Positions 2,268 to 2,379 of a stretch of 64,000 nt of DNA are shown piece after piece. The DNA comes from an uncultured Candidatus Binatia bacterium (GTDB lineage Bacteria; Desulfobacterota; Binatia; Bin18; CBDCRK01). The stretch spans positions 23,277 to 87,276 of the forward strand of contig CBDCRK010000004.1 in NCBI GenBank assembly GCA_965220955.1, read 5' to 3'. The position numbers and the translations under genes were made by a program. Below the pieces are notes generated by a model. The model made no database searches. It was not told the origin of the DNA and worked only from the letters and a program-made list of their open reading frames with translations. Position 1 is the first letter of the stretch, and every line of letters starts with the position of its first letter.

Positions 2268-2379
2268 TGTGAAAATCAAGATATGCTCCGTAGGAGATTA
2301 AAACGAGGGCGCACTCCAACAAGCCCGCGCCCACTTGGGTGAGTTGTACTAAACTTCATGCTCCGTAGGAGGTTGAAAT
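2268..2379 (+). CRISPR. Degenerate mini-array: psiR1 (2268-2304), a 38-nt spacer-like segment (2305-2342) and psiR2 (2343-2379)
   Basis: psiR1 3' part atgctccgtaggagattaaaac differs at 1 position from the 3' 22 nt of the B-variant array repeat. psiR2 gttgtactaaacttcatgctccgtaggaggttgaaat keeps the GTTG start, the hairpin core and most of the handle. It has the same orientation as the main array and lies in the cas6-cas4 intergenic region. Confidence 0.75.

What the first reader, a model, noticed from the sequence alone, without database searches (positions are those of the whole stretch)
2268..2379. Degenerate repeat-spacer-repeat mini-array embedded between cas6 and cas4
The 126-bp cas6-cas4 intergenic region holds two 37-nt repeat-like elements in array orientation. 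They flank a 38-nt segment (gagggcgcactccaacaagcccgcgcccacttgggtga), which is within the spacer length range of the main array.

Both elements keep the CUCC-GUA-GGAG hairpin and most of the 8-nt handle, so Cas6 could plausibly bind and cleave them.

This architecture resembles the CRISPR-repeat-like regulatory or safeguarding RNAs described for other subtypes: CreA of CreTA in haloarchaeal type I-B, located in a cas intergenic region, and Cas-regulating CreR RNAs. I am not aware of such a module being characterised for a cas6-cas4-cas1-cas2 (I-D-like) locus.

Alternative explanations are a Cas6 processing site that splits the polycistronic cas mRNA, or a fossil array.
Basis: partly seen in the sequence, partly recalled or inferred. 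Interest (0 to 1): 0.75.

Follow-up and report, generated by a model that had tools for sequence, protein, structure and literature searches.

The report
Mini-CRISPR carrying a cas4 fragment
Between two genes of a soil bacterium's CRISPR immune system sits a one-unit CRISPR whose single stored spacer is a copy of a different version of the neighbouring cas4 gene; related genomes repeat the pattern, which suggests that versions of this CRISPR gene cassette target one another or leave a record when one replaces another.

Summary
The 126-bp cas6-cas4 gap (2266-2391) of this Candidatus Binatia type I-D locus holds two repeat-like elements. Both keep the 11-nt hairpin CTCCGTAGGAG intact, and they flank a 38-nt spacer.

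The CreA/CreR reading is only partly supported. No seed-plus-PAM target was found in the window or in a relative's upstream cas genes.

The spacer is instead an in-frame copy of cas4 codons 39-51 from a non-resident allele. It matches other family alleles at up to 30/38, and a GTN PAM precedes the site in 26/26 of them. The resident cas4 site matches 22/38 and has ATA in the PAM position.

The pattern recurs. All eight distinct operon-embedded mini-arrays found in related Binatia loci carry spacers copied from cas6, cas4 or cas1 of this family, against 0 of about 289 main-array spacers.

The downstream hairpin lies exactly 20 nt before the cas4 start in most loci that carry it. Similar hairpins precede cas2 and, in some loci, cas6.

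Best reading: Cas6 cuts the cas operon mRNA at these sites and releases one crRNA directed at rival cassette alleles. That guide may be a selected exclusion device or a record of allele replacement. This is a new variant of the mini-array theme, and no RNA or cleavage data exist.

The parts
1..1319 (+). 3' part of the cas3' (type I-D helicase) gene, read in two overlapping frames (1-588 and 417-1319)
   Evidence: Weak TIGR03158 cas3_cyano hit on 1-588. The C-terminal 300 aa are 57-72% identical to the gene upstream of cas6 in related loci. The frame change sits at a G-run that is GGG here and GGGG in L082.
1393..1400 (+). Handle-like ATTGAAAA 10 nt before the cas6 ATG; possible remnant of a repeat-derived element upstream of cas6
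   Evidence: L163, L086 and L006 have an intact hairpin plus handle at the equivalent place. Homology between the window and L081 starts at window 1398.
1411..2265 (+). cas6 (284 aa)
   Evidence: TIGR01877, PF19308 and PF10040.
2268..2304 (+). psiR1: degenerate 5' part, intact hairpin at 2286-2296, handle ATTAAAAC at 2297-2304
   Evidence: 27/37 identity to the repeat. The covariance model matches only positions 15-37, 23.7 bits.
2305..2342 (+). psi-spacer (38 nt): in-frame copy of cas4 codons about 39-51 from a non-resident allele (translates as EGALQQARAHLG)
   Evidence: 30/38 to cas4 of L083 and L168. A GTN flank is present in 26/26 homologous sites. It beats 300/300 shuffles.
2343..2379 (+). 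psiR2: full-length repeat-like element, hairpin at 2361-2371, altered handle GTTGAAAT
   Evidence: 30/37 identity. Covariance model 31.1 bits, E about 1e-4, positions 1-37.
2380..2391 (+). Rest of the predicted 20-nt cas4 leader, with the Shine-Dalgarno-like GGAG at 2380-2383
   Evidence: The distance from hairpin end to ATG is 20 nt here and in L083/L166, L084, L087, L089, L091, L097, L100, L103 and L135. It is 19 nt in L086 and 16 nt in L163; L099 has a REP-like insert.
2392..3030 (+). cas4 (212 aa)
   Evidence: TIGR00372 and PF01930.
2503..2543 (+). Resident cas4 site homologous to the psi-spacer (2506-2543), with ATA at 2503-2505 in the PAM position
   Evidence: 22/38 identity. The site encodes IEGSLKHQRVNSGE.
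3039..4040 (+). cas1 (type I-D Cas1d)
   Evidence: TIGR04093, 403.9 bits against a cut-off of 385.
4067..4078 (+). psiR3: repeat-derived hairpin without a handle, 10 nt before the cas2 GTG; its 3' arm GGAG is the likely cas2 Shine-Dalgarno sequence
   Evidence: The equivalent hairpin is present in L004/L108 (compensatory CTCTGTAAGAG), L093, L096, L164, L172 and L168.
4089..4364 (+). cas2
   Evidence: TIGR01573 and PF09827.
4562..6507 (+). Main CRISPR array: 27 repeats of 37 nt in two hairpin variants (CTCTGTAAGAG x19, CTCCGTAGGAG x8)

Best explanation
The element is a one-spacer CRISPR unit embedded in the cas operon. It belongs to a lineage-specific set of repeat-derived Cas6 sites that punctuate the cas operons of Candidatus Binatia type I-D systems.

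Shown:
- Two elements with an intact Cas6-type hairpin flank a 38-nt insert.
- The insert is an in-frame copy of a cas4 allele that is not the resident one.
- The homologous site in other alleles is preceded by the type I-D PAM GTN.
- The same architecture recurs in related loci, and there too the spacers are always copied from cas6, cas4 or cas1.

Inferred mechanism:
1. The gap is transcribed as part of the cas operon.
2. Cas6, encoded just upstream, cuts 3' of each stem-loop, as Cas6d does in arrays.
3. Cutting separates the upstream cas3'-cas6 mRNA from the cas4-cas1-cas2 mRNA. The latter then starts with a fixed 20-nt leader that carries its ribosome-binding site.
4. Cutting also releases a crRNA of about 75 nt: the 8-nt handle AUUAAAAC, the 38-nt spacer, and a 29-nt 3' part that includes the hairpin.
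5. The spacer was captured by the Cas4-Cas1-Cas2 machinery at an ectopic repeat.
6. The guide has no usable target in the resident locus, so it is not a CreR/CreA-type autorepressor. It can pair with other alleles of the same cassette.

Most likely biological meaning (least certain step): the guide acts against rival alleles of the cas6-cas4-cas1-cas2 cassette, which are exchanged between loci in these populations. That action could be exclusion of incoming alleles or priming against them.

The confidence of 0.45 applies to the whole package. For 'Cas6-cut embedded unit whose spacer is a captured foreign or former cas4 allele' alone I would give about 0.75. For 'the guide is selected to act on rival alleles' I would give about 0.3-0.35.
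For: Anatomy and significance.

Origin of the spacer:
- It aligns ungapped to the same cas4 position (offset about 105-114 nt) in 26 related loci at 24-30/38, with a 5' flank of GTC, GTT, GTG or GTA in all 26.
- It exceeds 300/300 shuffles.
- Its translation is VEGALQQARAHLGE when read with the conserved Val codon added, against a family pattern of VEGTLQHARANSGE that I read by eye. The resident cas4 encodes IEGSLKHQRVNSGE.

Recurrence:
- Mini-arrays occur at the same place in L086, L091, L099, L100, L103 and L163, and in the cas1-cas2 gap of L168. All 8 distinct spacers match family cas6, cas4 or cas1.
- None of about 289 main-array spacers does at E<1e-3. Fisher's test gives 7e-16.

PAM: an exact GTN flank is seen for 4 of 8 spacers, P=5.7e-4 at a GT frequency of 0.056. 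GTN is the I-D PAM, and Cas4 selects it (PMC5896167 and PMC10212523).

Little decay: 61% of the mismatches to the best-matching alleles fall at third codon positions.

Candidate for targeting another allele: the L091 spacer matches cas1 of L104 over its first 23 nt, next to a GTG PAM.

Parts of a mature crRNA are what is kept. In all 8 mini-arrays psiR1 keeps the hairpin plus the handle (full in seven; L168's ends in A, not C), and psiR2 keeps the 5' part plus the hairpin.

The hairpin is under constraint. It is invariant in 26/30 non-array elements while the flanks diverge, and compensatory CTCT..AGAG variants exist.

Other points:
- Fixed 20-nt spacing to the cas4 ATG.
- Forms with one or two psi-repeats cluster in two Cas6 clades.
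- Cassette exchange is seen directly: L081 joins the same cas6-psi-cas4 segment (98.8% identity) to an unrelated effector module.
- Cas6d cleavage chemistry and the 8-nt plus 29-nt handles are from PMC10212523.
Against: - There are no RNA data, so transcription through the gap, Cas6 cleavage and Cascade loading are all inferred.
- The psiR1 handle carries a G-to-A change (ATTAAAAC) of unknown effect.
- No sampled allele matches this window's spacer better than 30/38, so an actual target allele has not been found.
- Three of the 8 spacers in the family are shortened or disturbed: 27 nt and 31 nt, and L168's with a partial repeat duplication. Those three lack an exactly placed PAM, which looks like decay rather than maintained guides.
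- The targeted sites are not more conserved than the rest of their genes.
- Solitary psi-repeats that make no crRNA keep similar handles and 5' parts, so the 'mature crRNA parts' pattern is not specific.
- Selection for exclusion does not obviously explain why every source site lies within about 750 nt of the mini-array.
- These cassettes were not found on plasmids or viral contigs.
Confidence: 0.45

Rival explanations
1. Relic with functional hairpins only. The hairpins are Cas6 processing or binding sites that organise the cas mRNA. The spacer is an accident: an ectopic integration at such a site of a prespacer from nearby cas DNA. It could have been taken from a former resident allele that was later replaced by recombination, or captured from displaced or incoming DNA during such a replacement. 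The crRNA, if made, does nothing today.
For: - All 8 source sites lie within about 750 nt of the mini-array, as expected for local capture.
- Shortened or disturbed spacers (27 nt, 31 nt, and L168's duplication) persist.
- The single-repeat form arises by deletion between psiR1 and psiR2: L089 equals the 5' part of L103's psiR1 joined to the 3' part of its psiR2.
- Solitary hairpins before cas6, cas4 and cas2 show that the hairpin is useful without a spacer.
- Allele and module exchange is seen directly.
- Off-target spacer integration has precedent: PMC6698737 was found under that term but not opened, and Nivala et al. 2018 is from my own memory.
Against: - Spacers copied from the resident allele should resemble it most. 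Instead the resident allele matches no better than a typical unrelated allele: 22/38, 23/37, 15/27 and 23/33, with L099 at 26/35.
- Escape from self-targeting by deleting the spacer or mutating the PAM would be far easier than allele replacement.
- The spacers show a coding-like mismatch pattern with little decay, although the flanking repeat parts have diverged.
- It does not explain why none of the main-array spacers is cas-derived, unless those are purged.
Confidence: 0.3
2. CreR/CreA-type regulator. The psi-crRNA guides Cascade to a partially matching, PAM-flanked site in a promoter, either of the cas operon or of a hidden toxin gene, and represses it without cleavage.
For: - Mini-array architecture close to cas genes.
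- Predicted I-D mini-arrays that regulate cas10d or cargo promoters are described (PMC10120712).
- The window's own cas operon promoter lies upstream of the window and could not be searched.
Against: - No seed match of at least 10/12 with a GTN flank exists in the window or in L081 or L082.
- The whole spacer is coding-sequence homology, not a seed-only match.
- The resident homologous sites have poor seeds: the window matches 2 nt before the first mismatch and lacks the PAM, and L099 matches 6 nt.
- Spacers differ completely between close relatives, which is unlike a conserved regulator-target pair.
- No toxin-like partner was seen.
- Described I-D mini-arrays sit elsewhere and, in the cyanobacterial loci fetched here, in the opposite orientation.
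Confidence: 0.08
3. Fossil of a former full array between the interference and adaptation modules, now decaying neutrally; neither the hairpins nor the spacer has a function.
For: - Degenerate 5' part of psiR1 and altered handles.
- Many related loci lack the element.
Against: - The hairpin is invariant in 26/30 non-array copies while the flanks diverge.
- Fixed 20-nt spacing to the cas4 start.
- Equivalent hairpins occur before cas2 and cas6, which are not module junctions.
- A decaying array would be expected to hold phage- or plasmid-type spacers, not 8/8 cas-derived ones.
Confidence: 0.05
4. Not CRISPR adaptation at all: the 38 nt is a scrap of cas4 left between hairpins by illegitimate recombination or template switching.
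For: The source genes are immediate neighbours, and both orientations occur.
Against: - Insert lengths of 35-41 nt in 5 of 8 cases match array spacers (35-40 nt).
- The boundaries abut the handle and the repeat start exactly.
- The GTN PAM is in the right position for 4 of 8 (P=5.7e-4).
- The copies come from non-resident alleles, which local template switching cannot produce.
Confidence: 0.03

Closest known systems
CreR / CreA and other crRNA-like RNAs from degenerate mini-arrays, including the predicted type I-D mini-arrays (PMC10120712; bioRxiv 10.1101/2023.03.10.532045; PMC8501985)
   Same: Both have two repeat-like elements around one spacer-like segment, inside or next to a cas locus. 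Both are presumed to be processed by Cas6 and loaded into Cascade. In both, degeneration spares the parts found in a mature crRNA.
   Different: - Known cases pair through a short seed with a PAM-flanked promoter (cas8, cas10d, cas6, creT or cargo genes) and repress it. Here the whole spacer is a copy of cas coding sequence from another allele, and no promoter target was found.
- The location differs: this one lies between cas6 and cas4 in operon orientation, not between cas3 and cas10d.
- Both hairpins are fully intact here, whereas described mini-arrays usually have a degraded distal repeat.
- Spacers differ between close relatives.
E. coli CRISPR3 'anti-CRISPR' orphan arrays with spacers matching I-F cas1, cas3 and csy2 (Touchon and Rocha 2010, PMC2886076)
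   Same: Short arrays whose spacers match cas genes of their own subtype. They were proposed to block entry of cognate CRISPR-Cas systems or to reflect past self-targeting.
   Different: There the cognate cas genes are absent from the genome and the array is an orphan. Here the unit sits inside an apparently complete cas operon, has a single spacer, and matches non-resident alleles of adjacent genes.
Canonical type I-D crRNA biogenesis by Cas6d (PMC10212523)
   Same: Same hairpin and handle layout. Cutting would give an 8-nt 5' handle plus a 29-nt 3' part, for a predicted 75-nt product against about 72 nt in Synechocystis.
   Different: The substrate would be the cas mRNA itself, not a leader-driven array transcript. 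Cleavage would also split the operon mRNA.
Ectopic or off-target spacer integration ('neo-CRISPR' loci). PMC6698737 was listed for that search term but not opened; Nivala et al. 2018 is from my own knowledge
   Same: A spacer inserted at a repeat-like sequence outside a leader-adjacent array.
   Different: Those are laboratory events at random repeat-like sites. Here the site is a conserved element of the operon, and the captured DNA is always a neighbouring cas gene.
Atypical-repeat 'private' guides of CRISPR-associated transposons (from my own knowledge: Petassi et al. 2020; Saito et al. 2021)
   Same: A guide flanked by atypical repeats and kept apart from the main array for a special, self-related target.
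   Different: No transposon genes are present here. The target is a cas allele rather than a homing site.

Membership tests
Type I-D CRISPR-Cas locus | Cas1d, Cas4, Cas2 and Cas6 together with Cas3', Cas10d, Csc2 (Cas7d) and Csc1 (Cas5d) | tested here: met
   Cas1 passes TIGR04093 (403.9 against 385 bits). cas6, cas4, cas2 and a cas3' tail are in the window. Csc2, Csc1 and Cas3' are seen upstream of the near-identical cas6 in L081, and the full gene order is seen in L172. The window itself starts inside cas3'.
CRISPR mini-array (crRNA-like RNA gene) | Two repeat-like sequences flanking a spacer-length segment, outside the main array and near cas genes | tested here: met
CRISPR mini-array (crRNA-like RNA gene) | Processed into a small crRNA-like RNA and bound by the effector | not testable with these tools
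   No transcriptome or biochemistry is available. Only sequence competence is shown: intact hairpins and a 7/8 handle.
CreR (Cas-regulating RNA) | 5' seed of the psi-spacer complementary to a PAM-flanked site in a cas promoter | tested here: not met
   No match of at least 10/12 with a GTN flank in the window, L081 or L082. Caveat: the window's own operon promoter is not in the available sequence.
CreTA (CreA antitoxin plus CreT toxin) | Adjacent toxin gene whose promoter is the psi-spacer's target | tested here: not met
   The gap is filled by the two repeats and the spacer. No promoter-like site is predicted in 1200-4700, and no seed target was found nearby.
Cas-gene-matching 'anti-CRISPR' array (Touchon and Rocha) | Spacers homologous to cas genes of the cognate subtype | tested here: met
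   8/8 embedded spacers. The window's matches cas4 at up to 30/38.
Cas-gene-matching 'anti-CRISPR' array (Touchon and Rocha) | Cognate cas genes absent from the carrier genome (orphan array) | tested here: not met
   cas6, cas4, cas1 and cas2 flank the element.
Cas6d substrate | Repeat stem-loop with the cleavage site at its 3' base, followed by the 8-nt handle | tested here: inconclusive
   The stem-loop is 11/11 in psiR1, psiR2 and psiR3, and compensatory variants occur in the family. The handles match 7/8, 6/8 and 4/8. Cleavage itself was not tested.
Genuine acquired spacer (Cas4-Cas1-Cas2 product) | Array-like length, precise repeat junctions, and a source site preceded by the subtype PAM | tested here: met
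   38 nt against 35-40 nt in the array. A GTN flank in 26/26 homologous sites. Family-wide, 4/8 have an exact GTN, P=5.7e-4.
Viral or plasmid solitary repeat units / RNA anti-CRISPRs | Encoded on a mobile element | tested here: not met
   No relative of this Cas6 in IMG/VR and no close relative on PLSDB plasmids. The element sits inside a chromosomal-looking cas operon.

The most novel reading that the evidence does not exclude
The embedded guide is a competitive device of the cas cassette itself. A cas6-cas4-cas1-cas2 cassette carries, hard-wired in its own mRNA, a crRNA against other alleles of the same cassette, while its own allele is immune. It therefore destroys or primes against incoming rival alleles. 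In cells that hold both alleles, it would force repair of the cut rival copy from the guide-carrying copy, which would behave like a gene drive. This would make CRISPR-Cas loci agents of conflict with one another. It would also explain the module shuffling seen in Binatia type I-D loci.
Probability: 0.25. Interest if true: 0.85.

Novelty: new variant of a known kind. Interest (0 to 1): 0.68.

Why it matters
Mini-arrays next to cas genes are currently understood as regulators that repress promoters through short seed matches. This case points to two other things.

First, Cas6 sites appear to be built into a cas operon in front of cas6, cas4 and cas2. That would be a natural version of the Cas6/Csy4 trick that synthetic biologists use to insulate genes within an operon (my own knowledge).

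Second, there is a class of embedded single-spacer units whose spacers are, without exception so far, copies of neighbouring cas genes from non-resident alleles.

If the guides are active, CRISPR-Cas cassettes police or displace each other. That bears on how cas modules are shuffled and why they turn over so fast. If the guides are passive, they are datable scars of cas allele replacement and of ectopic spacer integration in nature. Either outcome can be tested with a small set of experiments.

Tried and rejected
1. Seed and PAM search for the psi-spacer in the window, L081 and L082. There were no GTN-flanked hits. The 11/12 hit at 17238 has a TCG flank and is at chance level.
2. Fold of the whole gap. 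The z-score is 0.12, so there is no special overall structure beyond the two repeat hairpins.
3. Promoter and terminator scan of 1200-4700. Nothing was found in the gap.
4. Rfam search. Only sub-threshold CRISPR-DR10 hits on the array repeats appeared.
5. RNA-targeting idea, since I-D Cascade binds ssRNA (PMC9123187). Rejected because 5 of the 8 spacers are in the sense orientation and could not pair with the mRNA.
6. Local recoding of the resident allele to escape the guide. Not supported: the resident sites are not unusually diverged relative to the rest of their genes (ranks 9/25, 22/33, 3/25, 14/18 and 5/33).
7. Generality across type I-D. In 66 cyanobacterial loci with arrays, no same-orientation repeat hairpins occur between cas6 and cas4 or between cas1 and cas2. 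The feature is restricted to the Binatia clade.
8. Mobile-element carriage. This Cas6 family has no relative in IMG/VR and no close relative on PLSDB plasmids.
9. Exact look-up of the window's own Cas6 to fetch upstream DNA failed. One contig look-up returned no DNA.
10. cas3' inactivation as evidence of tolerated autoimmunity. The frameshift lies in a G-run that differs from L082 by one G, so it may be an assembly error.
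Full report
**What is in the window**

Bases 1-6507 hold the 3' half of a type I-D CRISPR-Cas locus on the + strand:
- the tail of cas3' (1-1319)
- cas6 (1411-2265)
- cas4 (2392-3030)
- cas1 (3039-4040; passes the Cas1d model TIGR04093)
- cas2 (4089-4364)
- a 197-nt leader
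- an array of 27 repeats of 37 nt (4562-6507)

Close relatives of the Cas6, at 68-82% identity, all come from Candidatus Binatia (formerly filed under 'Deltaproteobacteria') genomes and from metagenome contigs. Cyanobacterial I-D Cas6 proteins are about 30-36% identical.

The 126-bp cas6-cas4 gap contains psiR1 (2268-2304), a 38-nt psi-spacer (2305-2342) and psiR2 (2343-2379). Both repeats carry the hairpin CTCCGTAGGAG unchanged. Their handles are ATTAAAAC and GTTGAAAT, against the canonical ATTGAAAC. Overall identity to the repeat is 27/37 and 30/37, and array spacers are 35-40 nt.

A covariance model built from 16 array repeats of the family finds psiR2 full length (31.1 bits, E about 1e-4). 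It finds psiR1 only from the hairpin onward (23.7 bits, E about 4e-3) in a filter-free scan of the whole window.

A third hairpin, without a handle, lies at 4067-4078, 10 nt before the cas2 start. No promoter-like or terminator-like site is predicted in the gap.

**Related loci**

I collected 58 Binatia-type loci and compared their cas6-cas4 gaps. The gaps fall into five forms:
- **Mini-array** (two psi-repeats plus a spacer): the window with its near-identical L081 and L082, and L086, L091, L099, L100, L103 and L163.
- **Single psi-repeat** directly before cas4: L083/L166, L087, L089, probably L094 (the contig ends inside the element), L097 and L135, with a mutated hairpin in L084.
- **Short gap with no repeat**: for example L001, L002, L005, L006, L008, L085, L092, L170 and L172.
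- **A REP-like palindrome**.
- **An inserted small gene** (PF05635).

L168 has a mini-array in the cas1-cas2 gap instead.

On a Cas6 tree, the forms with psi-repeats cluster in two clades, with L100 apart. L089 equals the 5' part of L103's psiR1 joined to the 3' part of its psiR2. The single-repeat form therefore arises by deletion between the two repeats.

The distance from the end of the cas4-proximal hairpin to the cas4 ATG is exactly 20 nt in the window and in ten further loci. It is 19 nt in L086 and 16 nt in L163. A purine-rich Shine-Dalgarno-like stretch lies within those 20 nt.

Hairpin-plus-handle elements also precede cas6 in L006, L086 and L163. Hairpins precede cas2 in the window, L004/L108, L093, L096, L164 and L172. 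In 30 such non-array elements the 11-nt hairpin is unchanged in 26, while the flanks have diverged widely. L004/L108 carry the compensatory variant CTCTGTAAGAG, which is also the majority repeat variant of the window's own array.

In 66 cyanobacterial I-D loci with arrays, no such intra-operon elements were found.

**The unexpected result: where the psi-spacers come from**

Every one of the eight distinct embedded spacers is homologous to coding sequence of cas6, cas4 or cas1 of this same family:

| Locus | Source gene | Orientation | Offset in gene |
|---|---|---|---|
| window | cas4 | sense | about 114 nt |
| L100 | cas4 | antisense | about 417 nt |
| L163 | cas4 | antisense | about 505 nt |
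| L086 | cas1 | sense | 39 nt |
| L091 | cas1 | antisense | 64 nt |
| L168 | cas1 | sense | about 822 nt |
| L099 | cas6 | sense | 132 nt |
| L103 | cas6 | sense | 512 nt |

- Each real spacer scores above all 300 shuffled versions against the family's cas genes.
- Among about 289 main-array spacers from the same loci, none hits cas genes at E<1e-3. Fisher's test gives 7e-16.
- The window's spacer aligns without gaps to the same codons of cas4 in 26 loci, at 24-30 of 38 positions. Read with the conserved Val codon it translates as VEGALQQARAHLGE. The family pattern, read by eye, is VEGTLQHARANSGE.
- In all 26 loci the three bases 5' of the site are GTN, which is the type I-D PAM (PMC5896167; PMC10212523).
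- An exactly placed GTN is also seen for the spacers of L091, L099 and L163. That makes 4 of 8, with P=5.7e-4 at a background GT frequency of 0.056.
- The other four include the shortened or disturbed spacers. For L086 and L100 a GT lies 3 nt and 1 nt further out.
- Length, junctions, PAM and the use of both orientations point to capture by the Cas4-Cas1-Cas2 machinery rather than to illegitimate recombination.

**The source is not the resident allele**

The window's own cas4 site (2506-2543) matches 22/38 and is preceded by ATA. The resident sites of the other testable loci match as follows:

| Locus | Match of its spacer to its own gene |
|---|---|
| window | 22/38 |
| L100 | 23/37 |
| L103 | 15/27 |
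| L168 | 23/33 |
| L099 | 26/35 |

Alleles of these genes are about 70% identical to one another at the nucleotide level. The resident sites are not locally more diverged than the rest of their genes. The resident allele therefore behaves like any unrelated allele, while some sampled alleles match at 78-91%.

Sixty-one per cent of the mismatches to the best-matching alleles fall at third codon positions. The spacers thus look like little-decayed copies of alleles that my sample does not contain.

One pair comes close to a working guide and target: the L091 spacer matches cas1 of L104 over its first 23 nt, next to a GTG PAM.

Exchange of modules is visible directly. L081 carries the same cas6-psi-cas4 segment (98.8% identity) joined to a different effector module. 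The homology begins at window 1398, just before cas6.

**How it most likely works**

Shown by sequence:
- competent Cas6 hairpins
- the parts of a mature crRNA are retained: hairpin and handle in psiR1 (full in seven of eight mini-arrays; L168's handle ends in A), and the 5' part and hairpin in psiR2 in all eight
- a fixed leader length before cas4

Inferred, by analogy with Cas6d, which cuts after the stem-loop and leaves an 8-nt 5' handle and a 29-nt 3' part (PMC10212523):
- The operon transcript is cut at 2296/2297 and at 2371/2372.
- This yields an upstream mRNA that ends in a Cas6-bound hairpin.
- It also yields a 75-nt crRNA-like RNA.
- The third product is a cas4-cas1-cas2 mRNA with a 20-nt leader.
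- The hairpin before cas2 overlaps its likely ribosome-binding site, so it may be bound rather than cut.

The guide has no usable target in the resident locus, which rules out a CreR-like autorepressor acting on the sequence available here. It could pair with other alleles of the cassette.

**Why the spacers are always cas-derived is not settled**

- **Selected guide against rival alleles** (exclusion, priming or drive-like conversion). This fits the non-resident source, the low decay and the recurrence.
- **Relic of local capture linked to allele replacement.** This fits the source sites all lying within about 750 nt of the mini-array, and the presence of shortened spacers.

I rank the first slightly above the second. 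The difference is small.

**Comparison with what is known**

- Regulatory mini-arrays (CreA, CreR and the predicted I-D ones between cas3 and cas10d) share the architecture. They differ in target logic, position and conservation.
- The nearest precedent for cas-matching spacers is the E. coli CRISPR3 orphan array, read as an 'anti-CRISPR' array. There the cas genes are absent.
- My literature searches found no description of Cas6 sites punctuating a cas operon, or of embedded mini-arrays with cas-derived spacers. The searches cover only the held library.

**Limits**

- Everything about RNA processing, Cascade loading and targeting is inference.
- Most related contigs are short metagenome fragments.
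- Several loci are near-duplicates of one another.
- The operon promoter of this genome was not available.
- The true source allele of the window's spacer has not been found.

Noticed in passing
window 4562-6507: The array mixes two repeat variants that differ by a compensatory pair in the hairpin stem: CTCTGTAAGAG x19 and CTCCGTAGGAG x8. The order from the leader is TTTTTTTTCTCTCCTTTTTCCTTTCTC. The same-species contig L082 has the C-type variant in the five array repeats seen next to its leader. The psi-repeats are C-type.
   Followed up: partly
window about 414-417 (overlapping ORFs 1-588 and 417-1319): There is an apparent frameshift in cas3' at a G-run, GGG here against GGGG in L082. It is either an assembly error or a real inactivation of the helicase.
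   Followed up: partly
window 1398; L081 7196: L081 shares cas6, the mini-array and the start of cas4 with the window at 98.8% identity. Upstream it has a different effector module, whose Cas3' is only about 36% identical over 104 aa. The breakpoint lies just before cas6, inside a handle-like ATTGAAAA (1393-1400).
   Followed up: partly
window 4067-4078; L004 6098, L093 3296, L096 8092, L164 4923, L172 7571: A repeat-derived hairpin without a handle lies 6-14 nt before the cas2 start in the window, L004/L108, L093, L096 and L164 (L172's was seen but its spacing not measured). Its 3' arm GGAG probably serves as the cas2 ribosome-binding site, so Cas6 binding could control cas2 translation.
   Followed up: partly
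L168 2980-3105: A mini-array lies in the cas1-cas2 gap. Its spacer is copied from the 3' part of cas1, and a partial duplication GGAGATTGAAA follows the first handle.
   Followed up: partly
cas6-cas4 gaps of L003, L004, L084, L088, L090, L097, L098, L099, L101, L108 and L168: A REP-like palindromic element (GTAGGGCGCGTTACACGCGCC...GGTGCGCACAGCGCACCCTAC) is inserted in the same gap, sometimes next to a psi-repeat.
   Followed up: no
cas6-cas4 gaps of L007, L096, L104, L107, L164, L165 and L167: A small gene, called at 105-128 aa where gene calls exist, lies between cas6 and cas4. PF05635 (23S rRNA intervening-sequence protein family) hits are on record for L164, L165 and L167; the others were matched by eye. 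It is flanked by runs of AGGCT-type short repeats.
   Followed up: no
L008 about 640-740, minus strand: Two repeat-like hairpins (GTCTGTAAGAC-ATTGAAAT and CTCCGTAGGAG-CTTGATTC) lie about 25 nt apart. They are upstream of, and divergent from, the first cas gene. This could be the CreR-type mini-array of this family. A quick seed scan found no target.
   Followed up: partly
window 2378-2380: The altered psiR2 handle creates an ATG 5 nt after GGAGG. It is out of frame with cas4 and opens a short ORF (about 46 codons by my count) that overlaps the cas4 start. Relatives lack it, so it is probably incidental.
   Followed up: no
window 17238-17249: This is the best seed-type match of the psi-spacer in the window: 11/12, with a TCG flank, in an intergenic region. 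It has no PAM and is at chance level.
   Followed up: yes
window 7097-7117 and 7383-7880: A weak repeat-model hit (12.7 bits, E 0.6) lies downstream of the array. An ORF with a Schlafen AlbA_2 domain follows it.
   Followed up: no
window 33750-33791: A perfect 21-bp tandem duplication (CAGATGCCGTTACGCATCTTC, two copies).
   Followed up: no
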